64,000 nt of DNA, from IMG/VR virus record IMGVR_UViG_2795385714_000007; one strand, given 5' to 3'. A program made the translations under genes and the position numbers. Position 1 is the first letter of the stretch. The number at the start of each line of letters is the position of its first letter. Below are positions 25,922 to 62,870 of the stretch, one piece after another. The notes below the pieces were generated by a model. The model worked only from the letters and a program-made list of their open reading frames with translations, had not been told where the DNA came from and did no database searches. This DNA comes from a virus (Duplodnaviria; Heunggongvirae; Uroviricota; Caudoviricetes).

Positions 25922-25980
25922 GGTCAGACCTGCCTCGTCGATCACTGCTCGCAGCAGCGGGTCGTGGAGGGCGGGTTGGG

Positions 25981-31102: not shown

Positions 31103-31773
31103 GGATGCCCCAGCCCTGCGAAACGTAGGCGCAGTTGAACGGCGCCGCCTTTGATGCGGAACCATGCGACAACCCCGTAGGTGGAGTGGGTGAACAACTC
31201 CACGTAGCTGTCCGCCAGGTTCGGAATCGAGGTATGGAGCAGGCGGACGCCAGGACGCGCACCGTACACGGCTTCGTACGGGACGATGTGCCTCAGATAT
31301 TGGTCGCCGAACCGTATCCGAAGCCAGAGCATGTCTGTTGCATGGGCGTAGGACGACTCACACCTGATGTCGACTGTCCGGTGGTGGCTCGGAAGTAGCC
31401 GGTATTCCTCGGGCGTCTCAACTGCTCGGAACTCGGTGGGCACCGGTTCAGCGATGACCAGAATGAACTCTGATAGGAGCGGTTGGTCGTCGCTGGGAAT
31501 GATGGGGTACGAGTGACGCTGCTCAGTCCAGGGCCGCGGCGTGGCAGGAATGGTCAGCTGGGCAAGGAGAGGCGCTGGTAGTTGCTCCGGGTCACTTCCC
31601 CGGATGCCGGTCGCGCCAGGGCAGGTGCCGCGCACGAGGCCGTGCCAGGGGCCGCCACACTGCGGGCAGGTGTCCTGGTTGATGTTGTGGTCGTAGCCCG
31701 ACCGTTCCTGCTCCAGCTGCTCGTCGACGAGCGCGGCTATCGCGTCGACGACATCGGCCTCCGGGTTCTTCAC
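31099..31773 (-). CDS. hypothetical protein with zinc-finger motif
   Basis: GTG start at GTGA overlap; CPQCGGPWHG...C. Confidence 0.45.
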   Translation of the reverse strand: MKNPEADVVDAIAALVDEQLEQERSGYDHNINQDTCPQCGGPWHGLVRGTCPGATGIRGSDPEQLPAPLLAQLTIPATPRPWTEQRHSYPIIPSDDQPLLSEFILVIAEPVPTEFRAVETPEEYRLLPSHHRTVDIRCESSYAHATDMLWLRIRFGDQYLRHIVPYEAVYGARPGVRLLHTSIPNLADSYVELFTHSTYGVVAWFRIKGGAVQLRLRFAGLGHP

Positions 31774-33632: not shown

Positions 33633-35348
33633 CTACAGTCCGGCCGAGAAGTCCGAGATCAGCTGCGGGACAGCCGAGTCGAAACCGGACACGTCCAGCT
33701 GGCCGGGGTCGGCGGGGTCGGCGATGGTGAAGCGGGTTGCCGTCATGCCGACAACGATCAGGCGGGCGTTGATGCCCGTCTTGTTGCGGTAGTCGCGGAG
33801 CGCCTGGTGTGGGTGGACGTCGCCGAACCAGGTTTCGTTGTCGGTGATGACCACGAACGTGTCGAACTCGCGCTTGGACTGCTGTGCCCACAGCATGGGG
33901 AGTGCGCAGTCGGTGGCGCCGAAGCTGAGTCCGGCGGTGTACCGGCACACGTCGTCGAGGCGGCGGCGCGGTGTGATGTCCAGCGGGGTGATGTGGTGCT
34001 GGGACCGGTAGCCGTAGCCCGAGCGCGCGGCCTGTCGTCCGTCGGTGAAGCCGACGACCTCGTGGTCGGGCTCGACGTTGGTGGTGACGAGTGCGAGTGC
34101 GGCTGCGGCCTCGCGGCATGTCAGCGGCATACCTGAGATAACGGCGCCCATGGAGCCGGACACGTCCAGCGCCAGCAGGGTGCGCTTGCCCGACGGCTCT
34201 ACCACGCCGTAGGCGTTGTAGAACGCGGCGTCCAGGGCGTCCACGACCTTGCGTTCCGGCGTCCAGGTGGAGTCGCCGCGCGCCGAATGCCCGGACGCGT
34301 AGGTGCGCTGTGCGATCAGGACGTTGACCGGGTGGACGCGGCCCTTGCGTAGGCGGTCGGCGTCCTGGAGCTGAGCAACGACACGATCCAGATATTCACC
34401 ATGCAGGACCCCATGCCGGGTCAGGCGAGGAAGTTGGCGCATCAATGCGGTCTGCGGCAGACCGTGCTCAATCAGCGCTTCCCACACAGCGGTGAAGTTG
34501 AGCGCGACGTCTGGCAACGCTTCCCAGGGAAGGCCGTTGCCACGTCGAATGATGCTCACCCATTCCTTGGGCTGGGTGGCGCGCTGGGCATCCTCGAAGT
34601 CCTCGATGATCGCCAGGGGGTGGTCAACCACAAGCTCGACGTTAGGCAGCTTGGGCCGGGAGGCATTGCGCTCCCCTGCCTTCAACTGCTCGGCAGTGAG
34701 GGGCTGGACCTTACCGATGTAGTCGTTCAGGCCCTTGCCGACTGCCCAGTTGAAGGCGAGGCGGCGGGCCGGGTCCGCCGTGGTGGGGCCGGACAGGCGT
34801 AGTAGGTCCCGGTGCATCCAGCCTTCGCGCTGTCGGTACTTGACCAGCTGGTAGGCGAGGCGGTCGACGGGCTTGTCGAGGTACCAGCCGCCGACGGCGC
34901 GCTGCATGGCGCGGCCCCACCCGCGGAACTGCTCCATGTACTTGACGAACGTGTAGAGCTGGGTGCCGGTGCGGGCGACCGTGGGCAGGGCTGCTGCTGC
35001 GGCGCGGCGGCCGTCGACGTCCTCTGCTGCGGCGGCGATGGCGAGGGCGAACAGGGCCGGGTTCTGCCGGGGTGCGCGTCCGTCCACAGACACCTCGACG
35101 ATGTGCTGGACGAGGCGGACTGGGTCGGCCGCTGCTGCGCGGAGCACGACGGCCGCTGTTTCCTTGGTGAGGTCGGGGGCGGTGGTGTAGTAGGTGCCGC
35201 CGTCGGTGCCGAGGGTGAGGAAGCGGTGCAGCAGGGCCTCGTCGTCGATGGTGAAGGTGTAGCCACCGGCGGAGTTCTTCACCTGCCGGGGGTCCGCCTG
35301 CTGCGACTGCGGCGTCTTACGGGTTCCGATAGTGGTGAGAACGTCCAC
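33633..35348 (-). CDS. rsr: Ro60-like ribonucleoprotein (TROVE domain + vWA domain), Rsr orthologue
   Basis: 571 aa; N-terminal TROVE/HEAT-like region; C-terminal vWA with MIDAS motif LALDVSGSM; adjacent permuted tRNA-like RNAs. Confidence 0.85.
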   Translation of the reverse strand: MDVLTTIGTRKTPQSQQADPRQVKNSAGGYTFTIDDEALLHRFLTLGTDGGTYYTTAPDLTKETAAVVLRAAAADPVRLVQHIVEVSVDGRAPRQNPALFALAIAAAAEDVDGRRAAAAALPTVARTGTQLYTFVKYMEQFRGWGRAMQRAVGGWYLDKPVDRLAYQLVKYRQREGWMHRDLLRLSGPTTADPARRLAFNWAVGKGLNDYIGKVQPLTAEQLKAGERNASRPKLPNVELVVDHPLAIIEDFEDAQRATQPKEWVSIIRRGNGLPWEALPDVALNFTAVWEALIEHGLPQTALMRQLPRLTRHGVLHGEYLDRVVAQLQDADRLRKGRVHPVNVLIAQRTYASGHSARGDSTWTPERKVVDALDAAFYNAYGVVEPSGKRTLLALDVSGSMGAVISGMPLTCREAAAALALVTTNVEPDHEVVGFTDGRQAARSGYGYRSQHHITPLDITPRRRLDDVCRYTAGLSFGATDCALPMLWAQQSKREFDTFVVITDNETWFGDVHPHQALRDYRNKTGINARLIVVGMTATRFTIADPADPGQLDVSGFDSAVPQLISDFSAGL

Positions 35349-35479
35349 CGTGCATCTCCTTGTTAGAGGGTGCGGGCGGCGCGAACGTGTGAAGGGCGGC
35401 CGGGGTTCGTCATCCTTGCGAGGGGTGGGGTAACCGACTGCGATCCTGCTCGTGCCACCCGCGAGGGCTATTGGGCGGG

Positions 35480-35600
35480 TGATGTGAACGTGTTTGTGCT
35501 GACCGGGATTTCGCTTTTACACCCGCACTGGGTGCGGGCGACAGGGATTGAACCTGCATTAACCAATTGAGTGATAACCGACCGAGCGTCCTGTTCACAT
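35480..35600 (-). ncRNA. YrlA-like Y RNA module 1 (permuted tRNA-like)
   Basis: Minus strand: 9-bp closing stem GATGTGAAC/GTTCACATC; T-arm-like GCAGGTTCAATCCCTG; 7-bp acceptor-like hairpin CCCGCAC-CCA-GTGCGGG capped by a CCA loop. Confidence 0.6.
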
Positions 35601-35619
35601 CGGGTTGTCTGTAGTGCGT

Positions 35620-35775
35620 GCGCGTAGGTGGTGTGGGCGTGTGGGGTGCTGACCGGCGTATGTGGACAATTGCCTCTACCAATTGGGCTACACCCCGCGG
35701 GCGAGGTGGTGGGGCTCGAACCCACACCTGACTGTTTTGGTAACCGACCTGCGTCCTGTCCACACCGCCTGCGCG
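35620..35775 (-). ncRNA. YrlA-like Y RNA module 2
   Basis: T-arm GTGGGTTCGAGCCCCAC then D-arm-like GCCCAATTGGTAGAGGC; flanked by conserved GGTCGGTTACC / CCGGTCAGCAC arms. Confidence 0.55.
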
Positions 35776-35799
35776 CGTGCGTCTGCTGGCGTTTGAGGC

Positions 35800-35940
35800 G
35801 GTGTGAGCGTGTGGGTGTCTGCCGGGGTTAAGCGCTCTAGGCCACTGAGCTACAACCACTTTCGTGGTCGACGGGATTCGAACCCGCGTCTCTCTCGTGA
35901 AAGGAGTTAACCGACTGACGTCCTGTTCACACCGTGCTGC
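35800..35940 (-). ncRNA. YrlA-like Y RNA module 3
   Basis: T-arm CGGGTTCGAATCCCG; acceptor stem CGACCAC-GAAA-GTGGTTG; canonical D-arm TAGCTCAGTGGCCTAGAGCGC; T-arm/3' acceptor strand precedes 5' acceptor/D-arm. Confidence 0.65.
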
Positions 35941-35964
35941 GTCTATGGAGTTGTGTCAGGGGGC

Positions 35965-36115
35965 CGCGACCGTGTGTGTGCCGACCGGTGTTTTAGGCGC
36001 TCTGCCAGGCTGAGCTACCCCGGACATGTGATGCCGGGGGCAGGATTTGAACCTGCGACCTCCCGCTCCGAATGCGATAACCGACCATGCGTCCTGGTCG
36101 CACCCTGATGCGTAT
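35965..36115 (-). ncRNA. YrlA-like Y RNA module 4
   Basis: T-arm GCAGGTTCAAATCCTGC; hairpin CCCCGG-(10 nt)-CCGGGG; D-arm TAGCTCAGCCTGGCAGAGCGCC. Confidence 0.6.
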
Positions 36116-36139
36116 ATGGAGTTGTGTTGGGTGATGGGG

Positions 36140-36280
36140 CGAACGTGTGTGTGCTGACCGGGGTTTAGCGCTCTGCCAACTGAGCTACAGCCGGGGGCTG
36201 GCTGGCGGGACTCGAACCCGCGACCTCTCCATTACAAGTGGTAACCGACCTGCGTCCTGCTCGCACCATCTGGTGTCTAT
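36140..36280 (-). ncRNA. YrlA-like Y RNA module 5
   Basis: T-arm CGGGTTCGAGTCCCG; D-arm TAGCTCAGTTGGCAGAGCGC; same conserved flanking arms. Confidence 0.6.
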
Positions 36281-36298
36281 GTAGTTGTGGTCTGGGGG

Positions 36299-36418
36299 AC
36301 GACGTGAACGTGGTTGGCGCTGGGCGGGTTTGGCTCCATTTCCCCGCTTGGCTCGGGGCGTTCTAACTTGAACTACGGGGGCGTACCCCGAGATAACCGA
36401 CCTGCATTCTGTTCACGT
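36299..36418 (-). ncRNA. divergent Y RNA-like module 6
   Basis: Same 9-bp closing stem (GACGTGAAC/GTTCACGTC) and GGTCGGTTATC arm, but the internal domain is two GC hairpins rather than a tRNA-like T/D pair. Confidence 0.4.
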
Positions 36419-36446
36419 CGTCCGTTGTTTTGTTGTCTGAAAACGA

Positions 36447-36464
36447 AGCTATACCGCGGTATAG
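36447..36464. promoter_or_regulatory. 18-bp palindrome GCTATACCGCGGTATAGC
   Basis: Perfect inverted repeat using the same TATAG/CTATA half-sites in swapped order; lies just upstream (on the minus strand) of the Y RNA array. Confidence 0.4.
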
Positions 36465-36519
36465 CGGTGCTGCAACAGGATTGAGGCTTGTCTGTATAGC
36501 CGCTCGGTAGCCGCGACCA

Positions 36520-36858
36520 TCACCGTCCGGCGCCAGCTCCTCCGCTCGCCGAGGAACCACCGCTACTAGCAGACCCGCTACCAGCGCTGTTACCTCCAGT
36601 TTCGCCCGCGCCAGGACCTGCCGGAGCTGTAGATGAACGGTGCTGGCCCTCAGGGCATTCCGGGTCCTCCGGGGGTTTGTATCCGCCGCCACCCGCTGGC
36701 GTGAAGGGTGCCGGTCGGGCGCCCAGGCAGGTCTTAGCGTCTGTCGCGGCATACAGGCAACGGTCGGGGAACGCGGAGGCGGTCGCAGTTGGGAGCACCG
36801 TTAGGGCCGCGATGGCGGCACCGATGACGGCAATACGTTTTACATAAAGGTTTTTCAT
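36520..36858 (-). CDS. secreted protein with Gly/Ser-rich C-terminus
   Basis: Inner ATG MKNLYVKRIAVIGAAIAALTVLPTATASA = signal peptide with AXA site; N-terminal codons unusually AT-rich for this genome; GTATAG-N4-GTATAC motif 8 nt upstream. Confidence 0.5.
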   Translation of the reverse strand: MKNLYVKRIAVIGAAIAALTVLPTATASAFPDRCLYAATDAKTCLGARPAPFTPAGGGGYKPPEDPECPEGQHRSSTAPAGPGAGETGGNSAGSGSASSGGSSASGGAGAGR

Positions 36859-36868
36859 GACTCGGAAC

Positions 36869-36887
36869 GTATACAGAACTATACATA
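36869..36887. promoter_or_regulatory. operator-like repeat GTATACAGAACTATACA in divergent promoter region
   Basis: Between minus-strand gene start 36858 and plus-strand gene start 36943. Confidence 0.4.
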
Positions 36888-36916
36888 GAAGCAAGGTCGT
36901 TAAGGCTTGTCCTTTC

Positions 36917-36932
36917 GTATAGTGCGCTATAC
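36917..36932. promoter_or_regulatory. 16-bp palindromic operator GTATAGTGCGCTATAC (second copy)
   Basis: Identical to the site at 33236..33251; 10 nt upstream of ATG 36943; no SD, so leaderless promoter/operator likely. Confidence 0.5.
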
Positions 36933-36942
36933 ATTCTGAGTC

Positions 36943-37194
36943 ATGGCAAGAGTGATACTCACAGCGAAAGCGCGGATGCGCGCCAACAAGCGCCGCGTCA
37001 CGTCGGCACTCCGCAACGCAGGTATGCCGCTCCTCGTCGACAACCGCGACGGCATCTGGCGCCTCTACTTCATCGGCACCGACGACACCGGTGTCGAGCT
37101 GGAGCTGATCCTGGTCCCACACGCCACCCAGGACTGGACCTGGGTATGTATCCACGCCATGCCCACCAAGTACCGGAAAGGAGGGGCACAATGA
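36943..37194 (+). CDS. BrnT-like (RelE-fold, DUF497-like) toxin candidate
   Basis: 83 aa; RLYFIGTDDTGVELELILVPHATQDWTWVCIHAMPT resembles the BrnT core (R..IG...G.L.VV......IRIISAR); plus strand in a minus-strand genome. Confidence 0.45.
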   Translation: MARVILTAKARMRANKRRVTSALRNAGMPLLVDNRDGIWRLYFIGTDDTGVELELILVPHATQDWTWVCIHAMPTKYRKGGAQ

Positions 37195-39548: not shown

Positions 39549-40597
39549 CAGTTACCGCCCGCCGGGGTGGTCTGCCGCTGCTCGGGTGTCTGGTGCGGTA
39601 CCAGCCCGTCGTTGAGTATCGCGGTCACCTTGTCGACGACCAGTCGTCCGGCGCCCGCCTCGTCCAGCAGCGGCTCGTCGGCGACACGCTGGACCATGTC
39701 GTTGATGCCGTCGAGGCGCCAGTATGCCTCGGCTAGTAGGTGTTTGAGTTGGTCGAGTAGTTGCATGTTTTTCTCCCGTTCTTCGAGTTCGCGCATGAGG
39801 TCGATGACGCCGCGCTGGAGCCAGGGGTATTCCCGTTCGCCATATGTTCGGCCGCAGGTGGTGCAGTCGTATTGGGAGGTGCCGTCCCAGCGGCCGACGG
39901 TGTAGGCGCCGCACTGCTGGCCGTCCCGTTTGACTGCGGGGCAGGGCATGGCGGAGTGGTGGCGTAGTCGGGGTAGTCCGAGGGCCTGGTAGACGTTGCG
40001 GGACAGCTCGATTAGTTGGAGGGCGATGTCGACGCCGTCGCGGTCTACGAGGTGGCGGGGTTGTCCGTGCTGGGGATGCCAGCCCTCGTCGCCGTCGGGT
40101 ACTCGGCCCCAGACGAGCATGGGTTGGGCGGGTTGAGCCAGGAGTACGTCCAGGTTTTCGCCGACGACGGCGACGGAACGGGCGACTACCTGACGTTGGT
40201 GGACGGTGAAGCCCTGGCGGCCGTGGCGCTGCCTGCCGGTCAGGTTCATCGCGTGTTCAACCATTTCCGCTGCGCGGTCGGCGGTCTCGACGATGTCGCG
40301 TTGGAGAGCGTCGCGTTGGGTGTTGAGGTTGATGGCTGCGGTAGAGGTCATGGTGACGCGTGCTCGGTCGACGTACACGCGTTCGCCGATGCCTTCGTGG
40401 AGCCGGTCCCAGTCCCGGGGTAGGCCGTTGACGGCGTACCGCAGGCGGGTTAGGCAGCCGCCGCAGATCACACCGTCGGCAATGAGTTGGCCGGAGGGTG
40501 CGTCATCTTCGTCGACGACGGTTGACCAGTCGTGGTTTACGCATCGGTGTCCGAACGCGCAGCGGTGCGGATCACGTTGCGTCACAGGGTTACTCAT
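39548..40597 (-). CDS. hypothetical protein with multiple zinc-finger motifs (350 aa)
   Basis: Inner ATG MSNPVTQRD; several CxxC/HxxC clusters. Confidence 0.45.
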   Translation of the reverse strand: MSNPVTQRDPHRCAFGHRCVNHDWSTVVDEDDAPSGQLIADGVICGGCLTRLRYAVNGLPRDWDRLHEGIGERVYVDRARVTMTSTAAINLNTQRDALQRDIVETADRAAEMVEHAMNLTGRQRHGRQGFTVHQRQVVARSVAVVGENLDVLLAQPAQPMLVWGRVPDGDEGWHPQHGQPRHLVDRDGVDIALQLIELSRNVYQALGLPRLRHHSAMPCPAVKRDGQQCGAYTVGRWDGTSQYDCTTCGRTYGEREYPWLQRGVIDLMRELEEREKNMQLLDQLKHLLAEAYWRLDGINDMVQRVADEPLLDEAGAGRLVVDKVTAILNDGLVPHQTPEQRQTTPAGGN

Positions 40598-40599
40598 GC

Positions 40600-41052
40600 T
40601 CACTGCGCCTCGCCCTGTTCCCATGAGTTGCGGCATGTGATGCAGGTGCGGAGGACGTACCTGCGGTGCGGGAACTCGGCGGTTAGCGGGCTGTCCCACC
40701 ACGTCTCGTACTCGGGTATCTCGACCTGGTGTGCTGCCTGGGTGTCGCATTGGGGGCAGGTGTCGAAGGCGTGGAATTGCAGGTCGATTCGGTATGGGTG
40801 GGTCTTGCGTGCGAACCAGTGGCCGTCGTTGTCGCGGGCTTTCGGCGGCCATACGGCGATCTCCACTATGGTGCCGGTGACGTTGAAGGGCAGGTCCAGG
40901 ATGTCGCCGGGGTGCAGGGTGTCGGTCAGCCTGGCGCGAACGAAATCGTCGTGTGCGAGATTCAGGCGGAAGGGTACTGGCCACTTCTTACCGTTGCGGT
41001 GCAACGCAACTGGGGTTGTCGGATCGTCCAGGCGAACGGTCTGATAGGTCAC
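40600..41052 (-). CDS. hypothetical protein
   Basis: GTG start with GGAGG RBS at GTGA overlap. Confidence 0.4.
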   Translation of the reverse strand: MTYQTVRLDDPTTPVALHRNGKKWPVPFRLNLAHDDFVRARLTDTLHPGDILDLPFNVTGTIVEIAVWPPKARDNDGHWFARKTHPYRIDLQFHAFDTCPQCDTQAAHQVEIPEYETWWDSPLTAEFPHRRYVLRTCITCRNSWEQGEAQ

Positions 41053-41660
41053 TGCTGCCTCCAAGTCTGTCCACACTCCGTGCACTCCCGGGTGACAGAG
41101 CCGGTGTCCTGTGTGCATGGCTGGATGTAGTGGGTGTTGATGAATCCGCAACGGGGGCAGGCGCATTGTGCGGCGAACTCAGATATTCGGTAGGTGTCGG
41201 GTCGTGTCGGTTTGGCTATCTCGGGTGCGCCTAGGACCTTGTAGCCCTGGCCGAGCCAGAGGTATGCGACCTCGCTAGTGCGGTCCCACCACCACTTGCC
41301 GATGTGGTCGGTGGCCGCGTTGACCATGCTGGGCAACTCGTCGTAGGAGTCGACCTCGCCGAACATGTACAGCGGCTGGCCTGGACCGGAGCGGGCAAGT
41401 AGTGCACGCCGTAGCGGGTTCGGTTCGACTCCGACCCAGCGCTCACCACCGACGTTCACGTTGCCGACGATGGTGTGGGCGGCGATGCTACCGCGGCTGG
41501 CCTGCACCGTGATGGTCCCGCCAGCCTGGATAGCGACGGAATTGTCGCCGGAGATCTGGATCTGGTTGCCGCGTCGGCGATGCCCGAGCGTCAACAGGTA
41601 CGCGGTGAATCCGCCACTAGCCGCAAGAAATAGCGCCAGGGCCTCAAGAATCACGCTCAC
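41049..41660 (-). CDS. membrane-anchored protein with C-terminal zinc ribbon
   Basis: N-terminal TM helix; CACPRCG...CTECGQ. Confidence 0.5.
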   Translation of the reverse strand: MSVILEALALFLAASGGFTAYLLTLGHRRRGNQIQISGDNSVAIQAGGTITVQASRGSIAAHTIVGNVNVGGERWVGVEPNPLRRALLARSGPGQPLYMFGEVDSYDELPSMVNAATDHIGKWWWDRTSEVAYLWLGQGYKVLGAPEIAKPTRPDTYRISEFAAQCACPRCGFINTHYIQPCTQDTGSVTRECTECGQTWRQQ

Positions 41661-41974
41661 GACTCCAACCCCCGCGGCCGGTTGTTGATGCGTGCTAGCT
41701 CCATGCCCTGTCGCTCCAGTTCCTCCCGCTCAGCCGCGCGTAGGTACGCACTCTGCAACTGGAGGATGACGTGCCGTATGGCGTCTTGCTGGGTGTCGAC
41801 GCAGGCGATGGGGTGTTGCTCCCAGGGCCGCCATATGCACCATTGCGGCGATGCGGTCAGGACGTCGTCGGGCAGTGCGGACCAGTCCCGGCGCTGCCAG
41901 GGTGTCTGTTCGCCGTTCTGCGCTTTGCGTATGCGCCAACGCTTTAGCTGCTCCGGGGTCCACTCACGGTGCAT
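41657..41974 (-). CDS. hypothetical protein
   Basis: Inner ATG MHREWTPEQL with GGAGG RBS. Confidence 0.45.
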   Translation of the reverse strand: MHREWTPEQLKRWRIRKAQNGEQTPWQRRDWSALPDDVLTASPQWCIWRPWEQHPIACVDTQQDAIRHVILQLQSAYLRAAEREELERQGMELARINNRPRGLES

Positions 41975-42389
41975 TGAAAACCTCCTCGTATTTGCGTACA
42001 TCGCGGACGATGTGCGATGGCTTGACGACCGGTGCCTGGCACGTAGAGCACATGGGTATGACGCCAGCACGGGTAGCGGCGACGGTGCGTTCGCGTACCT
42101 CCCACATGGCCGCCATCCACAGCGCCCGTGCGCAATTCGTGCACAACAGGAACACCTCGTTGCCGAACTCGTCGGCCTCCTCGCCGTCGCAGTTGTCCAG
42201 GACATGCACCGAGACGACCGCGGTGACCGGCCGCCTGCACGTGCGTTGCGGGTGCTGGCAGGTGGGGCGACGACCGACAAACTGGTCGTTGAGCCCGACC
42301 AGCTGGGTATCTACTAGGGCTGCGATCTGCTGTTCGGTGAGGCGGTCTCCGGTCATCACAGGCAGCCCCCGGCGTGCACGGTCCAGCAT
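41964..42389 (-). CDS. hypothetical zinc-finger protein
   Basis: 141 aa; CTNCARALW...CSTCQ. Confidence 0.45.
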   Translation of the reverse strand: MLDRARRGLPVMTGDRLTEQQIAALVDTQLVGLNDQFVGRRPTCQHPQRTCRRPVTAVVSVHVLDNCDGEEADEFGNEVFLLCTNCARALWMAAMWEVRERTVAATRAGVIPMCSTCQAPVVKPSHIVRDVRKYEEVFNAP

Positions 42390-42402
42390 GTCGCGCTGGC
42401 GG

Positions 42403-43347
42403 TCATCCTGCTGCCCTCTGCGCGTCGGTGGGGTGTGGGACGAGCTGTAGGGGTTTACGGCACGTGCAGGGCAGGACGCCGGAACCGTCGTCGGCCTCGA
42501 TCCAGCCGCCGCCCTGACAGCGGGTGCACGCCTCGCGTCGGGCCAGGGCTGCTGCCCGGTCTGACTTCTGACGTTCAGCTGCCTCCTGGGCGGCTGCCTC
42601 GGATGCCAGTCGGGCTGTCATGCAGTCGCGGCAGTTTGGGGGGTGTGGGTCGTTGATGTGCTTAGGGCAGCGGGTGGGCGCCTCCCCAACGTAACCACCT
42701 ACCCAAGGTGACCCCTTCCCCCTCCCCTTCCCCTTCCCCCTAGTGATCCCGATGCCATCGGAATGGCATTCCAATGGCACATCGGTTTGCGATGGGTTTT
42801 CGATGCCATTGGGGTCGGTTTCAGATGGCATCGAAATGCCGTCGAGGTCACTGTCTGGGGACGTTGGGTCGTCGTCCGGCCTAGGGTCTGTCGGGGTGCC
42901 GTCTGGGCCGGGGCCAGACGGGTCGATCTGGTTGGCGACCGTCACCGCATCGGCACGGCGGGTGCGCCGCAACTCGGCCGCCAGTACCGCACGCAGGCTA
43001 GGTGATTCGACGGCCTGGGCGCATTTCAGAGCGTTAGCGAACAGGTACTTGTGCTTAAGCACGCCGTCGTTGCGAATATACGAGCGGACCAGCAGTTCCT
43101 CGGTGTCCTCGTCGTAGGCCACATAGAGGTGCTCGGCGAGTTCGTTTGTAGCGCGGCGTACATCGGCGACGCTGGTCTGCTCGCAGCCCTTCGCCCACTT
43201 GCTTAGTTGCAGCGGCAGGACACCGGCATTGTTCACATTCGGCTGCGACAACAGAAGCATGTACATGCGCTGTGCCTCCACGGAACGCTGCTGAAAGTCT
43301 TTGTCCCGCCAAATGATTGTAAGAATCCGACCATGGTCGCGCGGCAC
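42403..43347 (-). CDS. replication initiator-like DNA-binding protein (ori embedded in coding sequence)
   Basis: GTG start with GAAGGAGA RBS; N-terminal winged-helix-like region, low-complexity linker that encodes the iteron array, C-terminal Cys clusters. Confidence 0.45.
   Translation of the reverse strand: MPRDHGRILTIIWRDKDFQQRSVEAQRMYMLLLSQPNVNNAGVLPLQLSKWAKGCEQTSVADVRRATNELAEHLYVAYDEDTEELLVRSYIRNDGVLKHKYLFANALKCAQAVESPSLRAVLAAELRRTRRADAVTVANQIDPSGPGPDGTPTDPRPDDDPTSPDSDLDGISMPSETDPNGIENPSQTDVPLECHSDGIGITRGKGKGRGKGSPWVGGYVGEAPTRCPKHINDPHPPNCRDCMTARLASEAAAQEAAERQKSDRAAALARREACTRCQGGGWIEADDGSGVLPCTCRKPLQLVPHPTDAQRAAG
42712..42845. repeat. iteron array with 11-bp phasing plus polypyrimidine tract: candidate origin of replication
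   Basis: cccttccccctccccttccccttccccc, then alternating ATGCCAT/ATGGCAT heptamers at 42752, 42763, 42774, 42802, 42824, 42835 (spacings 11, 11, 28, 22, 11). Confidence 0.55.
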
Positions 43348-43349
43348 AG

Positions 43350-43733
43350 CTATATCTCCTTCTCGTTGGCTAGTTCTAGTAGGACGTCCGCGTGGCAGGG
43401 GGCGTCGAGTCGGCACCAGCAGCAAAGGTCGTGGCCTCGGAGAAGGGGCACCAGATCCTCCACGCGCTTCATGGAGCTGAGGAGCCAGCGGCGGTACAGG
43501 CGCACTGCGTAGACTGCTGCCCACTCGTGTGTCCCGGTGCCCTGGAAGAACTTTCCGGGTCCTTCGACGGTCCAGACACGTTCGCGACGGCGGCTGAAAA
43601 GGCCGGGCTCCGTCCCGGTGCACACGACCTTGAACGGGTTGCCCCATCGCGATGGCCGGGCAACTACTATCGCCCCTTCCGGTTTCCGCCACCCTGCGCT
43701 ACGCCGCAACTGAATACGTTGGGGCATGCTCAC
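43350..43733 (-). CDS. DUF4326 family protein
   Basis: PSRWGNPF signature. Confidence 0.65.
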   Translation of the reverse strand: MSMPQRIQLRRSAGWRKPEGAIVVARPSRWGNPFKVVCTGTEPGLFSRRRERVWTVEGPGKFFQGTGTHEWAAVYAVRLYRRWLLSSMKRVEDLVPLLRGHDLCCWCRLDAPCHADVLLELANEKEI

Positions 43734-43740
43734 CAGCCGG

Positions 43741-44163
43741 TCACTGGGTCACGGCCCATTCCACGGGGTGGACGGTCCAGCTGAAACCTGGCAGCTCCTT
43801 GCCGCTGTCTACCTCCAGTGGCGCGTCACTGGGGGGTTGAATCACTAACCAGGTCAACCGCTTCCCGGTGGCCGAGTAGTAGCGGCGGGCCAGGCGACCG
43901 TCCGTGTGGACGGCCACGCTGCCCTCGGCGTAGCCCAGGCGCTTGACGTTGAGGGCGCGGAGCAACCCGACCACTAGCTGTTTGGCGATGTTGTAATCCA
44001 GCTTCTGCGGGAAGCTGGGTATCTCCCTCTGTAGCCAAACGATCATGGCAGCCAGCTCGGTGTCGCTAACGGTCACACGGCCGTCCAGATATTCAAGTGG
44101 AGCCTCCGGCGAGGCTGGGGTCTGCGCCGGTGTGTCGTTGTCCAGTGTCGCGTTGAGGTTCAC
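43741..44163 (-). CDS. hypothetical protein
   Basis: 140-aa ORF. Confidence 0.45.
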   Translation of the reverse strand: MNLNATLDNDTPAQTPASPEAPLEYLDGRVTVSDTELAAMIVWLQREIPSFPQKLDYNIAKQLVVGLLRALNVKRLGYAEGSVAVHTDGRLARRYYSATGKRLTWLVIQPPSDAPLEVDSGKELPGFSWTVHPVEWAVTQ

Positions 44164-44516
44164 GCTGTCTCCTTGTTGTGGGTTGCGTTGCCGGACATGG
44201 GCGCCCAGCTGAGCAGCCCGTTGTGGTTGCTGCGGTAGTTGTCGACGGCCGCCTGTGCCTTATCTCGGCTGTAGTCCATGGACATCCACCACTCGACGTC
44301 GTGCCAGACGTCCCGTAGCGCCCTCATCTGCTCGGACTCCCACGCGGTCAACGCCTCGTTAATGCGGGCGATGAGTGCGCGGGTGTCCCGTGCGGCGCGA
44401 GTTCCCGGAAAGGACGAGTCCAGGGCGTCGGCCATGTCGTTGAGGGTGGACATGTGGCACATGACTTCGTCTAGGGCGTCCGAGTACAGGTAGTTGAAGC
44501 TGCCGCCGCTCACCAC
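44160..44516 (-). CDS. hypothetical protein
   Basis: 118-aa ORF. Confidence 0.45.
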   Translation of the reverse strand: MVSGGSFNYLYSDALDEVMCHMSTLNDMADALDSSFPGTRAARDTRALIARINEALTAWESEQMRALRDVWHDVEWWMSMDYSRDKAQAAVDNYRSNHNGLLSWAPMSGNATHNKETA

Positions 44517-45145
44517 TCGGCTCCCAGCTGCTCTATGCCGTCAGCCAGCACGTCGATGTTCACGGGCGCCATCTGCCATGCGTCTACGCCCACGTGGAGC
44601 TGCCGTTGGTGCACATGTGGGAGGAAGCTGGCGCGGGAATGGGTGTGCCCGTGTAGAAGCCACTCGCCCTCGTCGCGGAGCCGGTACTGGTTGTAGCGCT
44701 GCTCCGTGGTGTGGTCGCCGCGGTAGGGCAGGTGCGACAGCAACGCGGTGTGTCCGCCCACGCGGCGACGGGCGAACGGCTGCACCGACTGGAACACCTC
44801 CAGGTAGTGCGCCTGCCACTTGTGGGCGTCCCGATACATGGGGTGGACGCGGTCGTGGTTCCCGGAAACCAGGTGCTTCTCGCCGGGCCTTTGCTCGATC
44901 CATTTCAGCGCGTTCCTTTGTGCTCCAGATGATCCGGCGCTGAGGTCGCCCAGCACCCACACCTGGTCGTGCGGCTGAACGACTGCGTCCCAATTCTCGG
45001 CGAGGGTCCGGTCGTGCCACCGGATGCAGTGCTCACTACGTTCTGTAGGGGCCAGCGGGACCGCGATGTTGGCGCGGTTGGCGCGTTCCTCCGCGACCAG
45101 GGCATGCCCGATGTGTAGGTCGGAGGTGAACCAGACGGTCGTCAT
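44510..45145 (-). CDS. metallophosphoesterase (calcineurin-like Ser/Thr phosphatase fold)
   Basis: FTSDLHIGH, GDL, GNHD motifs; inner ATG at ATGA overlap. Confidence 0.7.
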   Translation of the reverse strand: MTTVWFTSDLHIGHALVAEERANRANIAVPLAPTERSEHCIRWHDRTLAENWDAVVQPHDQVWVLGDLSAGSSGAQRNALKWIEQRPGEKHLVSGNHDRVHPMYRDAHKWQAHYLEVFQSVQPFARRRVGGHTALLSHLPYRGDHTTEQRYNQYRLRDEGEWLLHGHTHSRASFLPHVHQRQLHVGVDAWQMAPVNIDVLADGIEQLGAEW

Positions 45146-45342
45146 CAGAAGCACTCCCCTGCGTGGATTGTGTGGCAGTCCGGGCACTTTCGCTCCTGCC
45201 GCCCGGGCTGTGCCGGATCGACCGCGTCAGGGCATTGGTCATGGACGATGTGATCGTGCATGTAGGTCGCCAAGTCACCCGGCTCGATCTGCTCACCGCA
45301 GTTACGGCACTGCCCGCGGTATTTAGCCTGAAACGCCATCAC
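45145..45342 (-). CDS. small zinc-ribbon protein
   Basis: CRNCGEQ...CPDCH. Confidence 0.45.
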   Translation of the reverse strand: MMAFQAKYRGQCRNCGEQIEPGDLATYMHDHIVHDQCPDAVDPAQPGRQERKCPDCHTIHAGECF

Positions 45343-46355
45343 GCCAACACCTGGGGGTAGCCGTCGAAGGTCCGGCCGTCGTGGTACAGCTCGCGGCCCG
45401 CCGCCTTCTTCCCGACGCGGTACATGGAGGTCGGGTGGTGGTGTGGGAAGTCGGCGCGTATCGCCTCACCACGGCGCGGGCCGTCAGGCCAGTCCAGATC
45501 ACCCGCGTTGTAGGTGTTTCCGTCGTCGGTCATCGCGATACCGTTCGAGAAGTCGAAACGGCCCTTCTTCAACGGCGCCATGGGTGTCCAATCGCCCCAT
45601 TGCTTGAACAGGAACGGGACACCGGCTGCCACACACTGGCGGTGCAGGCTCTCCGCCCACCACGGATGCATCGGCCGCGCGCCCGACCCGGACTCGCCGC
45701 CGACGATCACCCAGTCCAGACGCCCGATCCAGAACACCGAGTCTTTCCCGATCGGGTCGGCATGTAGGTCGATCGGCCCGAGAAGCGGCTCGGCACTGAT
45801 GAACCGCACGGCGGCCGGGGTGTCCAGCAGCGCCGGGATGCGGAGGTCGGCGCGCTTCTGATCTTCTGCGCTCACTCCCAACCAGACGTTGGGCAGGTAG
45901 TGCTGATCTAGCGAAACACCGGCCTGGGGCAACCAAACATCGCGGTCGAGCCCCGCCACGCCAACCCGCGCCCAGAAGGCATGACTACTCAGGAGCGACC
46001 GCATGCGGTCGTGGCGTTTGGTGAGCACCTGGAAGGTGTGGTGCGGGGCGAGCGCCATGACGGCGAACACCTTCGCGATGTACTCGTCGGGCACATCAGA
46101 GTGGAAAAGGTCGGCTTGTGAGCAGACGAAGATCTTCTTCCCGTCACGCTTTCGGAGTGGCCAGTCCAGACGGTTCGGGTGGAGTTGTACCGCCAGACTC
46201 GACCCGATGCCTTCACCGTCAAACTTTCGGCCTGCGATACGAATTGGTGTCGATCGTTCGATGTAGCAGTTCAGGCATCCATCACTGACACGGGTGCAAC
46301 CGGTCACTGGTGACCAAGTGGCATCAGTCCATTCGATGCCTGTTTTGTCCCCCAT
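45339..46355 (-). CDS. phage Gp37/Gp68 family protein
   Basis: Inner ATG MGDKTGIEWTDATWSPVTGCTRVSDGCLNCY, the characteristic N-terminus of this family. Confidence 0.7.
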   Translation of the reverse strand: MGDKTGIEWTDATWSPVTGCTRVSDGCLNCYIERSTPIRIAGRKFDGEGIGSSLAVQLHPNRLDWPLRKRDGKKIFVCSQADLFHSDVPDEYIAKVFAVMALAPHHTFQVLTKRHDRMRSLLSSHAFWARVGVAGLDRDVWLPQAGVSLDQHYLPNVWLGVSAEDQKRADLRIPALLDTPAAVRFISAEPLLGPIDLHADPIGKDSVFWIGRLDWVIVGGESGSGARPMHPWWAESLHRQCVAAGVPFLFKQWGDWTPMAPLKKGRFDFSNGIAMTDDGNTYNAGDLDWPDGPRRGEAIRADFPHHHPTSMYRVGKKAAGRELYHDGRTFDGYPQVLA

Positions 46356-60449: not shown

Positions 60450-60745
60450 GCAGTCCTCCAGCGGGATGCCTTGGTGTACAGGTCGATGAGTGGTTGATGC
60501 CATGGGCAGTAGGCGGATACCGAGAGAGCGATGACGCGTCCGGCGGCCTGGTCGGTGAACCCCCGTAGGTTGAGCGCCTGGCCGATGCTGTTGATGCCGT
60601 GGAAGGTTGGGTCGGCGCCGACGATGACGCAGACTGCGCCGCCGATGTCATTGGCGACGTCGTTGACCCTGTCGGCCGACGCAGGTGCTGCGGTGGCGAG
60701 CGCCAGCGCGGCAGCCATAGCGACGGTGGGAAGTTGGCGAATCAT
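60446..60745 (-). CDS. small secreted protein
   Basis: Signal peptide MIRQLPTVAMAAALALATAAPASA; two Cys in mature part. Confidence 0.5.
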   Translation of the reverse strand: MIRQLPTVAMAAALALATAAPASADRVNDVANDIGGAVCVIVGADPTFHGINSIGQALNLRGFTDQAAGRVIALSVSAYCPWHQPLIDLYTKASRWRTA

Positions 60746-61356
60746 GCGGCGGCCTCCACCAGCGCCAGGAGGCTACGCACGCGGGGCACTCGGTCCTCGT
60801 AGATGTCTGGATACTCGTCGGCTCGACGCAGATAGCTATCGAGCGCGCCTCGGAATCCGTCGCGCTCTTCGGTGGTGAGCACCGCCCATTCGTCCGGCAG
60901 GGCCACGGCGGCGTCGCTATAGATCGCGGTGCTTCCGAGATTGCCTCCGGGGTCGGTGATCACGGACATACTGGCGCGGCGGTCATAGAAGGCAGCCTTG
61001 TAGAAGACACTGACGCGTTCTACGCCGCGGTCGTCGACGATGGTTGAGTGCATGGCGTGTTCACTGCCCTTGCGTGACCACCCTTCCGGGAGGGTGGCCC
61101 GAACGAATAGCGGATCGCCCTCAACGCGTTCGCTGCGTTGGAATCCCCACTGTTCCAGAACATCCCAGCCACTGATGTCGAGCATTGCGTCGCCCTCGCC
61201 TGACCACACTCGCCCGGCATTGGCAGGGAGGAGGTCGGACGTGAGGAGCTGCTGTTGCCCAGTTCGCTCCATGCCCTCGATGTAGTTGGAGGTGTTGCCG
61301 TCCAGGCAGCCAACTAGATGCTCGATGGGGTGGCGTTGCGAGGTGTTCTCAATCAT
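60742..61356 (-). CDS. hypothetical protein
   Basis: ORF 60742..61371, likely start MIENTSQ. Confidence 0.45.
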   Translation of the reverse strand: MIENTSQRHPIEHLVGCLDGNTSNYIEGMERTGQQQLLTSDLLPANAGRVWSGEGDAMLDISGWDVLEQWGFQRSERVEGDPLFVRATLPEGWSRKGSEHAMHSTIVDDRGVERVSVFYKAAFYDRRASMSVITDPGGNLGSTAIYSDAAVALPDEWAVLTTEERDGFRGALDSYLRRADEYPDIYEDRVPRVRSLLALVEAAA

Positions 61357-61502
61357 GCTGCTGTACCCCATATTTCAGCCGGGATGCCATGCTTGGCGGC
61401 CAGCTCGTCCCAGATTGGGTTGGGACTTGGGGGCGTCGGTGGCGGTGTCGGTTGGACACCGAATAGGGCGCGGCGCCACCACTTGGATTCTCGTACGGGC
61501 AT
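61354..61502 (-). CDS. small Pro-rich protein (49 aa)
   Basis: ATG with AAGGAGA RBS; stop overlaps next start; not in ORF track. Confidence 0.25.
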
Positions 61503-61533
61503 AGCTGTCTCCTTGTGCTGAGTGAGTGGTTGA

Positions 61534-61890: not shown

Positions 61891-61895
61891 GTCAT

Positions 61896-61990
61896 CACCG
61901 GGCGGCCATGACGTTGACCGTGAGGACGACGCCAACGAAGGCACCGAACAGGAGCATCCAGAACATGGGGACGACTACCTCGCGGATCAC
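61896..61990 (-). CDS. tiny hydrophobic peptide (31 aa)
   Basis: GTGA-coupled to upstream gene; single TM segment. Confidence 0.2.
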
Positions 61991-62850: not shown

Positions 62851-62870
62851 GAAGCAACTCCTTGTTGTGG

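What the first reader, a model, noticed from the sequence alone, without database searches (positions are those of the whole stretch)
42403..43347. Candidate origin of replication embedded in an initiator-like gene: 11-bp-phased ATGCCAT/ATGGCAT iterons next to a polypyrimidine tract
Within a low-complexity, linker-encoding part of a 314-aa DNA-binding-like gene there is a 28-nt C/T tract. It is followed by six heptamers alternating ATGCCAT and ATGGCAT at spacings of 11, 11, 28, 22 and 11 bp, that is, on one face of the helix. Iterons inside the initiator coding sequence are the lambda O/ori-type arrangement. The placement amid early genes fits an ori.
Basis: partly seen in the sequence, partly recalled or inferred. 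Interest (0 to 1): 0.6.

Follow-up and report, generated by a model that had tools for sequence, protein, structure and literature searches.

The report
Replication origin inside a prophage initiator gene
A Mycobacterium abscessus prophage very probably carries its replication origin inside its own initiator gene, as an array of short 11-bp-spaced binding-site repeats followed by a G-run tract; this layout is known from phage lambda and staphylococcal plasmids, but I found no report of it for phages of high-GC bacteria.

Summary
The window is M. abscessus prophage prophiT37-1. The gene (minus strand, 42403-43347, gp34) belongs to an actinophage family annotated as 'replication initiation protein'.

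There are four exact and two one-mismatch ATGSCAT heptamers at 42752-42842, with spacings of 11, 11, 29, 22 and 11 bp, next to a 30-nt pyrimidine run (42712-42741).

The repeats are DNA elements, not a peptide by-product:
- They occupy all three codon frames and both orientations.
- Seven relatives (45-73% protein identity) keep the array, the 11-bp phasing and the G-run tract.
- Third-codon-position identity is highest there (0.84-0.89, against 0.51 in the N-domain).
- In phage Martha the equivalent array is non-coding.

In 15 of 16 homologous phage and prophage loci, and 38 of 66 further prophage loci, the most repeat-rich stretch is this linker.

The predicted N-domain is a winged helix. 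Its best structural match is the staphylococcal plasmid RepA_N initiator, whose origin also lies in the linker-coding middle of its gene.

Verdict: a lambda O/ori-type or pSK41-type in-gene iteron origin, and a new member of a known kind. Function is untested. The G4-capable tract in the place where those origins have an AT-rich unwinding region is the one unusual feature.

The parts
42403..43347 (-). Initiator gene (prophiT37-1 gp34, 314 aa), three-part: N-terminal DNA-binding domain, disordered linker, C-terminal Cys/His domain
   Evidence: Translation. Annotation. PHROG 3171 'replication initiation protein', E = 9e-71. AlphaFold2 model.
42925..43347 (-). N-terminal winged-helix domain (aa 1-141), the presumed iteron-binding module
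42688..42897 (-). DNA encoding the disordered linker (aa 151-220); it contains the whole repeat array and the G-run tract
   Evidence: pLDDT below 50 over aa 159-220. This is the most repeat-rich 150-bp stretch of the 4.9-kb stretch of the window around the gene (40403-45347), with score 41 against a median of 7.
42752..42842 (.). Iteron array: nine 11-bp-phased units with an ATGSCAT (ATSSSAT-like) palindromic core, in two registers offset by 7 bp. GC is 53.5%, among the lowest 1.5% of 100-bp windows.
   Evidence: Phasing P = 3e-4. Conserved in relatives.
42752..42758 (.). Unit ATGCCAT (exact); the 11-mer CGATGCCATCG is a perfect palindrome
42763..42769 (.). Unit ATGGCAT (exact); the 11-mer GAATGGCATTC is a perfect palindrome
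42774..42780 (.). Unit ATGGCAC (one mismatch)
42781..42798 (.). Two weak units in the second register (ATCGGTT at 42781, ATGGGTT at 42792)
   Evidence: Read from the sequence. They are in 11-bp phase with the units at 42803, 42825 and 42836. Relatives P0009 and P0011 use ATCCCAT/ATGGGAT as their main unit.
42803..42809 (.). Unit ATGCCAT (exact)
42814..42820 (.). Weak in-phase unit GTCGGTT
   Evidence: phase only
42825..42831 (.). Unit ATGGCAT (exact)
42836..42842 (.). Unit ATGCCGT (one mismatch)
42742..42751 (-). Conserved spacer between the array and the G tract (coding strand ...GATCACTA...)
   Evidence: ATCACTAGGGGG is identical in T37-1, P0002, P0004, P0005 and P0007 despite roughly 50% protein identity.
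42712..42741 (-). G-run tract on the coding (non-template) strand: AGGGGGAAGGGGAAGGGGAGGGGGAAGGGG. On the + strand this is the 30-nt pyrimidine run. It is a candidate unwinding or structure-forming element.
   Evidence: The only strict G4 motif (G runs of 4 or more, loops of 3 or fewer) in the 64 kb on either strand, at 42718-42740. It is the longest purine/pyrimidine run in the window. All 5 Gly codons are GGG against 17% genome usage, and 2 Arg codons are AGG against 5%. The G runs are conserved while the loop codons vary in relatives. Third-position identity is 0.84-0.89. ViennaRNA with G-quadruplex folding enabled predicts a G4, -50 against -7.6 kcal/mol with RNA parameters.
42448..42687 (-). 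C-terminal domain (aa 221-300): CxxH...CxxC, a long helix, then CxxC...C. It is a presumed zinc-binding module that recruits the replisome.

Best explanation
The stretch at window 42712-42842 is most likely the lytic (theta-type) replication origin of prophage prophiT37-1. It lies inside the part of the initiator gene (gp34) that encodes a disordered linker.

Proposed mechanism, with each step marked as shown or inferred:
1. After induction, gp34 is made from the early operon (inferred from gene order).
2. Its N-terminal winged-helix domain binds the roughly nine 11-bp-phased units with the ATGSCAT palindromic core, probably as dimers or oligomers. This wraps or bends the DNA into an O-some-like complex. 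The winged-helix fold and the repeat architecture are shown; binding is inferred.
3. The stress opens the neighbouring DNA. That DNA is either the relatively AT-rich array itself or the adjacent 30-nt homopurine/homopyrimidine G-run tract, which can adopt non-B structures (G-quadruplex, or triplex H-DNA) (inferred).
4. The C-terminal Cys/His domain recruits the host replicative helicase or primase. The phage has no annotated polymerase, helicase or primase of its own. The absence of such annotated genes is shown; recruitment is inferred by analogy with lambda O-P-DnaB and with pSK41 Rep-DnaG.

The linker peptide is largely a passenger of the DNA signal.
For: (a) Family. PHROG 3171 'replication initiation protein', E = 9e-71. 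344 actinophage records share the N-domain, and many are annotated as replication initiators.

(c) The array is a DNA-level signal.
- The units fall in frames 0, 1 and 2 and on both strands.
- 35 of 54 spacings in ten related genes are multiples of 11 (P about 1e-23), and only 7 are multiples of 3 where 18 are expected.
- Codon-position identity is 0.75/0.81/0.51 in the N-domain but flat at 0.64/0.72/0.72 in the array plus tract. Third-position identity reaches 0.84-0.89 at aa 197-216, the highest in the gene.

(d) Position is conserved while the motif changes.
- The units are ATGSCAT in T37-1, P0002 and P0004; ATCCCAT/ATGGGAT in P0009 and P0011; and GAACCCTT in GAL1, Portcullis, Wizard and many prophages. 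All lie right after the N-domain.
- The densest repeat window of the locus is the linker in 15 of 16 loci and in 38 of 66 independent prophage loci, against 9% expected by chance (P = 3e-23).

(e) Natural 'deletion' experiment. In Arthrobacter phage Martha the gene stops after the N-domain, and the TAGCCCCT array sits in a 258-bp gap with no annotated gene and no ORF on the genes' strand, followed by an A/C-rich repeat tract.

(f) Modularity. The BrutonGaster homologue joins the same N-domain to a DnaD-like helicase-loader C-domain.

(g) Composition. The array is locally AT-rich (53.5% GC, lowest 1.5% of 100-bp windows), and the G tract is unique in the window.

(h) Context. No polymerase, helicase or primase is annotated in the prophage.

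(i) Precedents. oriλ lies in the middle of O (PMC7466680). The pSK41 ori lies in the linker-coding centre of rep, between a DNA-binding N-terminal domain and a C-terminal domain that binds DnaG (PMC5703833). SPP1 oriL lies within gene 38 (PMC6316719).
Against: - There is no functional evidence of any kind: no binding data, marker-frequency data or plasmid assay.
- Repeat density alone is only borderline against Markov simulations (7 of 100).
- No classical AT-rich unwinding element is present; the adjacent tract is 73% GC.
- There is no GC-skew inflection at the site. This is weakly informative for a phage whose skew follows transcription.
- The protein has no Pfam match and no sequence match in the PDB, so its assignment as an initiator rests on database annotation by homology and on fold similarity.
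- In more distant branches (Drago, BrutonGaster, T36-1, many prophages) the repeats are spaced 12 bp and lie in frame, so there they cannot be told apart from peptide repeats.
- 28 of 66 prophage loci do not have their top repeat window in the linker.
- The C-terminal domain has no recognisable structural relative.
Confidence: 0.7

Rival explanations
1. The repeats are a specific protein-binding array, for gp34 itself or for another DNA-binding protein, but the array serves something other than origin firing. Candidates are autoregulation or a roadblock to transcription of the early operon, copy-number 'handcuffing', or a partition or nucleoid-organising site.
For: The evidence for a DNA-level signal shows selection on the DNA. 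It does not show what the DNA does. The phage encodes several other DNA-binding proteins and two ParB-like proteins. Iterons in plasmids also act in copy control (general knowledge).
Against: The array is tied to this N-domain across hundreds of phages, whatever the neighbouring genes are. The same three-part layout is a proven ori in lambda, pSK41 and SPP1. The prophage integrates through a tyrosine integrase, so it needs no partition site. There are no second-site clusters of the motif elsewhere in the window.
Confidence: 0.12
2. The repeats are a by-product of a low-complexity, slippage-prone linker. On this view the peptide repeats (DGI/PSE, GKGKG) and a GGGGAA hexanucleotide microsatellite have no DNA-level function.
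For: The region encodes a disordered, compositionally biased linker. In distant relatives the repeats are in frame at 12-bp spacing and read as peptide repeats such as TPSP, EPF/EGF and SDTQ. Microsatellite expansion could homogenise the GGG codons.
Against: An 11-bp period is incompatible with codon periodicity. All three frames and both orientations are used. Multiples of 3 are depleted among the spacings, 7 of 54. Third-codon positions are the most conserved in the gene, and the codon-position profile is flat. The G runs are constant while the intervening codons vary (K, R, Q, L, E) across relatives at 45-73% identity. In Martha the array is non-coding.
Confidence: 0.07
3. The conserved DNA marks a module-exchange junction, that is, a recombination hotspot between interchangeable N- and C-terminal domains. 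Conservation would then reflect recent horizontal exchange rather than selection for an origin.
For: The same N-domain is joined to at least three unrelated C-terminal regions: the Cys/His type, the DnaD-like type, and GAL1's. The block ATCACTAGGGGG is identical in genes that are otherwise about 50% identical. Mosaic junctions are common in actinophages (general knowledge).
Against: The motif, unit number and loop sequences differ between lineages while the architecture persists. That fits long-term constraint, not recent transfer. This reading does not explain the 11-bp phasing or the palindromic cores. It is also compatible with an origin rather than exclusive of one.
Confidence: 0.05
4. The array is a packaging (pac or cos) recognition site bound by a small terminase.
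For: Some pac sites are repeat arrays inside genes (general knowledge).
Against: The terminase and structural genes lie more than 20 kb away (record 41-43 kb against 17.7 kb). The record's note, written for a circularly permuted genome, says the cohesive ends of the virion DNA are joined, and it places no such end at this locus. The array travels with the initiator N-domain, not with terminases.
Confidence: 0.02

Closest known systems
Phage lambda O protein / oriλ (and lambdoid and Stx phages)
   Same: The origin lies in the middle of the initiator's own gene. It is an array of 4-6 internally symmetric iterons next to a strand-asymmetric unwinding region. The N-terminal domain binds the iterons and the C-terminal part recruits the helicase complex. 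The linker peptide lengthens when iterons are added (PMC7466680). Here the layout is the same, with the array in a disordered linker.
   Different: No sequence relationship was detectable; there is no Pfam Phage_rep_O hit in gp34 or in 67 relatives. The units are 11 bp with a 7-bp core, not 18-19 bp (the lambda iteron length is from my own knowledge). The flanking tract is a 73%-GC G-run, not an AT-rich region. No P-like helicase loader is recognised next to the gene. The host is a high-GC actinobacterium.
RepA_N plasmid initiators of Firmicutes (pSK41 Rep; PDB 4pta)
Bacillus phage SPP1 G38P replisome organiser / oriL, and similar organisers in phages of Firmicutes
   Same: The origin-binding protein binds direct repeats located within its own gene (PMC6316719). 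It is an early gene in a temperate or lytic siphovirus replication module.
   Different: SPP1 has an AT-rich unwinding element, a second origin (oriR), and its own loader and helicase (gp39, gp40). prophiT37-1 has none of these annotated. No sequence similarity was detected.
RepA-dependent origins of extrachromosomal cluster A mycobacteriophages (Miko, Jeeves; Wetzel et al. 2020)
   Same: Among the papers my searches retrieved, these are the only protein-dependent mycobacteriophage origins that have been tested experimentally. repA plus flanking DNA is sufficient for replication, and the authors state that the cis-acting ori presumably lies within or next to repA (PMC7157519). M. abscessus prophage homologues of gp34 carry the label 'RepA-like replication initiator'.
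   Different: Those RepA proteins are related to pMSC262-type plasmid RepA and act in prophage maintenance. gp34 belongs to an integrating prophage, presumably for lytic replication. I did not test homology between gp34 and Miko RepA.
G-rich origin elements: mitochondrial CSB II G-quadruplex/R-loop priming site
   Same: The G runs lie on the non-template strand of a transcribed region next to a replication start. In CSB II, G4/R-loop formation is linked to replication priming (PMC3488243 and PMC4176368, abstracts). Here a G4-5/N1-2 x5 motif lies on the non-template strand of the initiator gene.
   Different: This is a purely sequence-level analogy. There is no evidence here for transcription termination or priming. 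The G-run form of the tract is confined to some lineages (T37-1 group, GAL1, GD33-1) and is replaced by other asymmetric repeats in others.

Membership tests
PHROG 3171 / actinophage 'replication initiation protein' family | Significant full-length profile match | tested here: met
   E = 9.1e-71 over aa 1-290. Homologues Drago, GAL1, T36-1, BrutonGaster and Martha match the same PHROGs.
Lambda O family (Pfam Phage_rep_O) | Sequence membership in the family | tested here: not met
   No Pfam hit for gp34 at E of 1 or less apart from a spurious Anti-TRAP match. None of the 68 family members hits any replication Pfam.
Lambda O family (Pfam Phage_rep_O) | Iteron array located inside the initiator gene, in the inter-domain region | tested here: met
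   The array at 42752-42842 lies in the disordered linker, aa 169-199. It is conserved in relatives.
Lambda O family (Pfam Phage_rep_O) | AT-rich unwinding region adjacent to the iterons | tested here: not met
   The adjacent tract is 73% GC. The array itself is 53.5% GC, low for this genome but not AT-rich.
RepA_N plasmid initiators (Pfam RepA_N; pSK41) | Sequence membership (RepA_N domain) | tested here: not met
   No Pfam match. A profile search against PDB sequences found nothing.
RepA_N plasmid initiators (Pfam RepA_N; pSK41) | Winged-helix N-terminal fold of the RepA_N/DnaD type | tested here: inconclusive
RepA_N plasmid initiators (Pfam RepA_N; pSK41) | ori (Rep boxes) in the central, linker-coding part of rep; N-terminal, linker and C-terminal domain plan | tested here: met
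   Domain plan from the AlphaFold2 model. Repeats lie in the linker DNA. pSK41 description in PMC5703833.
RepA_N plasmid initiators (Pfam RepA_N; pSK41) | C-terminal domain binds host primase DnaG | not testable with these tools
Iteron-type theta origin (functional class) | Multiple phased copies of a short motif, conserved at the DNA level | tested here: met
Iteron-type theta origin (functional class) | Specific binding of the cognate initiator to the repeats | not testable with these tools
   This needs EMSA or footprinting. The only hint is residues 97-104, which differ by iteron class (HKY, HPN or QPN) and are confounded with phylogeny.
Iteron-type theta origin (functional class) | Fragment supports initiator-dependent autonomous replication, or replication starts there in vivo | not testable with these tools
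   No experiment or read-depth data are available here.
Canonical G-quadruplex motif | At least four G runs of 3 or more, with loops of 7 nt or fewer | tested here: met
   Five G4-5 runs with 1-2-nt loops. This is the only strict motif in the 64 kb. ViennaRNA with G-quadruplex folding enabled predicts a G4.
Canonical G-quadruplex motif | Actual quadruplex formation and a role in initiation | not testable with these tools
   This needs biophysics and recoding genetics.
Known RNA families (Rfam) | Covariance-model match in the region | tested here: not met
   No match at E of 1 or less in 41900-43900. No match at gathering score anywhere in the window.

The most novel reading that the evidence does not exclude
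In this lineage of high-GC phages, the AT-rich unwinding element of classical iteron origins may have been replaced by a conserved G-quadruplex/R-loop-prone tract on the non-template strand of the initiator gene. Transcription of the initiator gene itself would then leave a G4 or an RNA:DNA hybrid next to the initiator-iteron complex. That would hold the duplex open, or provide a primer, for loading of the host helicase. This would be a G4-assisted bacterial-virus origin, mechanistically closer to mitochondrial CSB II or metazoan G-rich origins than to oriλ.
Probability: 0.15. Interest if true: 0.75.

Novelty: new member of a known kind. Interest (0 to 1): 0.45.

Why it matters
Replication origins of mycobacteriophages and other actinobacteriophages are almost entirely unmapped. 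My literature searches found only the cluster A RepA and RNA-based prophage origins.

If this reading is right, a simple rule follows: look for the phased repeat array right after the N-domain of this initiator family. That rule would locate candidate origins in hundreds of actinophages and prophages, including 344 phage records and many prophages across Mycobacterium, Gordonia, Nocardia, Amycolatopsis, Streptomyces and Arthrobacter.

It would also provide:
- compact initiator-plus-ori cassettes for new shuttle vectors in M. abscessus and relatives;
- a natural series of initiator/iteron specificity pairs (ATGSCAT, ATCCCAT, GAACCCTT and others) for studying how recognition co-evolves;
- a test case for how an origin unwinds in a 65%-GC genome without an AT-rich element.

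For annotation, it warns that the 'low-complexity linker' of these proteins is shaped by DNA function.

Tried and rejected
- Pfam on gp34 and on 68 family members: no replication family matched.
- Profile search against PDB sequences: nothing.
- Rfam on the region and on the whole window: no RNA family.
- Promoter and terminator scan: no promoter-like site. One terminator-like hairpin at 42780-42794 on the + strand matches chance expectation (1 found, 0.9 expected) and was rejected.
- GC skew: no inflection near 42.7 kb. This is uninformative, because the skew is positive on the + strand across nearly the whole window.
- The close relative prophiGD43A-5 (96% identical) is too similar for a conservation test, so more distant relatives were fetched.
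- PHROG scan of ten neighbouring genes: no helicase, loader or primase was recognised.
- Literature searches for an in-gene ori in actinophages or a G4 origin in phages: no direct precedent in the held library.
- The peptide-repeat explanation was rejected on frame, orientation and codon-position evidence.
- The pac/cos explanation was rejected on genome position.
Full report
**Identity of the locus**

The 2-kb stretch around the finding is 100% identical to Mycobacterium phage prophiT37-1 (OQ417969.1), a 76-kb integrated prophage of M. abscessus T37. The window is the reverse complement of that record. The gene in the finding lies on the minus strand at 42403-43347 and encodes 314 aa. It is gp34, annotated 'helix-turn-helix DNA binding protein'.

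It sits in a long rightward early operon with a DnaQ-like exonuclease, a RecE-like exonuclease, an RNase H-like gene, a metallophosphoesterase and many hypothetical genes. No DNA polymerase, helicase or primase is annotated anywhere in the prophage.

**Checking the observation**

- The pyrimidine run is real but is 30 nt long (42712-42741). It is the longest homopurine/homopyrimidine run in the window; the next longest is 14 nt.
- Four heptamers are exact: 42752 ATGCCAT, 42763 ATGGCAT, 42803 ATGCCAT and 42825 ATGGCAT.
- Two carry one mismatch: 42774 ATGGCAC and 42836 ATGCCGT.
- The spacings are 11, 11, 29, 22 and 11.
- ATGSCAT is a palindrome apart from its centre. The 11-mers CGATGCCATCG and GAATGGCATTC are perfect palindromes.
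- Three weaker units (42781, 42792, 42814) lie in 11-bp phase with the second group. The array is therefore about nine units in two registers offset by 7 bp.

**Is it more than chance?**

- Four of the window's eight exact copies lie within 80 bp.
- Without choosing the motif in advance, this is the only 7-mer in the window with at least 4 non-overlapping copies per 100 bp, and ATGGCA/TGCCAT is the only 6-mer with at least 5.
- However, 7 of 100 (7-mer) and 5 of 100 (6-mer) Markov-simulated windows contain some such cluster. Density alone is borderline.
- Four of five spacings being multiples of 11 has P = 3e-4.
- The array is also unusually AT-rich for this genome: 53.5% GC, in the lowest 1.5% of 100-bp windows.

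**The repeats are not a peptide repeat**

On the coding strand the six strong units start in frames 1, 0, 1, 0, 2 and 1 and occur in both orientations. They are translated variously as DGI, MPS, NGI, VPL, ECH and DGI. An 11-bp period cannot arise from codon-level repetition.

**Close and intermediate relatives**

The database search returned relatives at 73% identity (P0002, another M. abscessus prophage) and at 45-55% (P0004, P0005, P0007, P0009, P0011). I fetched their DNA.

- All carry, at the same place, an array of 7-bp palindromic-core units. The units are ATGSCAT, or ATCCCAT/ATGGGAT in P0009 and P0011.
- The units are spaced 11 or 22 bp, in mixed frames and orientations.
- The array is followed by a short conserved spacer (ATCACTA or ATCCTTGC) and a G-run tract.
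- Even the internal phase break is conserved: a 29-bp gap, or 18 + 11.
- Over ten related genes, 35 of 54 spacings are multiples of 11 (P about 1e-23). Only 7 are multiples of 3, against 18 expected.

In the seven-gene DNA alignment, the N-domain shows the usual coding signature, with identity at codon positions 1/2/3 of 0.75/0.81/0.51. The array plus tract is flat at 0.64/0.72/0.72. Third-position identity reaches 0.84-0.89 at aa 197-216, the highest in the gene.

The DNA is conserved beyond what the protein needs.

**Family-wide pattern**

The N-domain (aa 3-126) is shared by 344 phage records from Gordonia, Mycobacterium, Arthrobacter, Rhodococcus and others. Many are annotated 'replication initiation protein' or 'RepA-like replication initiator'.

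- In 15 of 16 phage or prophage loci examined, the most repeat-rich 150-bp window of the 4.4-7-kb locus lies directly after the N-domain.
- In an independent set of 66 prophage loci from across the Actinomycetota, this holds for 38, against 9% expected by chance (P = 3e-23).
- The motif differs by lineage. GAACCCTT/AAGGGTTC is the commonest; others are GGGGTTA, GGGACCC and TAGCCCCT. The position is constant.
- In the Mycobacterium/Gordonia/Nocardia branch the spacing is 11 bp. In more distant branches it is mostly 12 bp and in frame, so there the DNA and peptide explanations cannot be separated.

Two natural variants are informative:
- In Arthrobacter phage Martha the gene ends after the N-domain (182 aa). 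Eight TAGCCCCT-type units sit in the 258-bp gap before the next gene, which holds no annotated gene and no ORF on the genes' strand, followed by an A/C-rich repeat tract.
- In Gordonia phage BrutonGaster the same N-domain is fused to a DnaD-like helicase-loader C-domain.

**The G-run tract**

On the coding, non-template strand the tract reads AGGGGGAAGGGGAAGGGGAGGGGGAAGGGG and encodes RGKGKGRGKG.

- It is the only strict G4 motif (G runs of 4 or more, loops of 3 or fewer) on either strand of the 64 kb.
- All five Gly codons are GGG, against 17% usage in 42 other genes of the phage (P = 1.4e-4). Both Arg codons are the rare AGG, at 5% usage.
- In relatives the G runs stay while the intervening codons change (AAG, AGG, TTG, CAG, GAA). 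This is the pattern expected if the G runs themselves are under selection.
- ViennaRNA with quadruplex folding enabled predicts a G4, -50 against -7.6 kcal/mol with RNA parameters.
- The G-run form is not universal. Portcullis has a GGA/GWR purine tract, T36-1 has GGTTCW repeats, Wizard has a G/T tract, and Martha has an A/C tract. What these share is a short-period tract with strong strand asymmetry after the repeats.

**Protein structure**

AlphaFold2 with a 68-sequence alignment gives three parts:
- a confident N-domain (aa 10-141, pLDDT above 90) with winged-helix topology;
- a disordered linker (aa 159-220, pLDDT below 50);
- a confident C-domain (aa 221-300).

The repeats and the G tract encode aa 169-212, entirely within the linker.

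The C-domain has invariant C227, H230, C239 and C242 and further conserved Cys/His residues. It has no structural relative.

**How it most likely works**

Shown:
- a conserved, phased, palindromic-core repeat array and an unusual asymmetric tract under DNA-level constraint, inside the linker-coding DNA of a protein;
- that protein's family is annotated as an initiator, and its N-domain has an initiator-like winged-helix fold;
- the phage has no annotated replisome genes.

Inferred:
- The N-domain binds the units as dimers or oligomers and bends the DNA.
- The adjacent DNA opens. This is either the comparatively AT-rich array or the G-run tract, through non-B structure.
- The C-domain brings in the host helicase or primase.

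I put this at 0.7.

**Comparison with known systems**

The arrangement matches three documented cases:
- oriλ in the middle of O, with iterons plus an AT-rich tract (PMC7466680);
- pSK41-type RepA_N plasmids, where Rep boxes lie centrally in rep, the linker peptide is dispensable, the N-terminal domain binds DNA and the C-terminal domain binds DnaG (PMC5703833);
- SPP1 oriL within gene 38 (PMC6316719).

Membership by sequence in any of these families was tested and not met. The similarity is in fold and architecture. The main differences are the lack of an AT-rich element and the unrelated C-domain.

The RepA origins of cluster A mycobacteriophages (PMC7157519) are the only experimentally tested protein-dependent mycobacteriophage origins that my searches retrieved. 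Their relationship to gp34 was not tested here.

**Rivals**

- A binding array with a non-origin role: 0.12.
- A low-complexity or slippage by-product: 0.07. This is contradicted by the frame, orientation, codon-position and Martha evidence.
- A module-exchange junction: 0.05. This is compatible with an origin rather than exclusive of one.
- A packaging site: 0.02.

**Novelty and verdict**

This is a new member of a known kind. It is an in-gene iteron origin of the lambda/pSK41 type, in a family and host group where I found no description of it.

It is useful rather than startling. It offers a rule for locating origins in hundreds of actinophages and raw material for vectors.

The one unusual feature is the conserved G4-capable tract in the position where those origins have an AT-rich element. 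A real role for G4 or R-loop formation in initiation is the most novel reading that the evidence does not exclude (probability about 0.15).

Noticed in passing
window 36195-36273 (-), within the unannotated gap ~35532-36951 next to the Ro-like RNA-binding protein gene (~33804-35531): ARAGORN calls a 79-nt tRNA-Thr(tgt), and the relative prophiGD43A-5 annotates a tRNA-Thr(tgt) at the corresponding end of its early region. Rfam finds no tRNA or Y RNA at gathering score. Since it lies beside a Ro-like gene, it may be the tRNA-like module of a Y-RNA-type partner rather than a true tRNA.
   Followed up: partly
L011 (Arthrobacter phage Martha) 1998-2804: The initiator gene stops after the N-domain (182 aa). 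The iteron array (TAGCCCCT and variants, 2557-2707) and an A/C-rich repeat tract (AACAACAGACAACTAACAAC...) lie in the 258-bp non-coding gap before gene 40. This is a natural split version of the in-gene origin.
   Followed up: yes
L008 (Gordonia phage BrutonGaster) 2001-2978: The same N-domain is fused to a C-terminal region that matches the PHROGs 'DnaD-like helicase loader' and 'primosomal protein'. This shows modular swapping of the recruitment domain.
   Followed up: partly
window 31722-31744: Four overlapping copies of the palindrome CGTCGAC form the only other 7-mer cluster with at least 4 copies per 100 bp in the window when overlapping copies are counted. It disappears when overlaps are excluded.
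   Followed up: no
window 24046-24077, 25959-25980, 35045-35072 (+ strand): Three looser G4-type motifs (G runs of 3 or more) lie on the + strand. None meets the strict definition that the origin tract meets.
   Followed up: no
window 60522-64000: This stretch lies beyond position 1 of the prophage record (record position 1 corresponds to window 60521), so it is probably host flank. The record notes that the immunity repressor gene is split across the prophage ends, which suggests attP lies within the repressor gene (my inference).
   Followed up: no
N-domain aa 97-104 (window ~43036-43059, - strand): The residues after the wing differ by iteron class: HKY(L/I)(F/W) with ATGSCAT, HPN with ATCCCAT and QPN with GAACCCTT. 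This may be a specificity determinant, but it is confounded with phylogeny.
   Followed up: partly
L021-L085 (prophage loci from genome contigs): GAACCCTT/AAGGGTTC recurs as the linker repeat across distant actinobacterial genera, including Nocardia, Gordonia, Micromonospora, Nocardiopsis, Dactylosporangium, Lentzea and Arthrobacter. When in frame it is read as EPF or EGF depending on orientation.
   Followed up: partly
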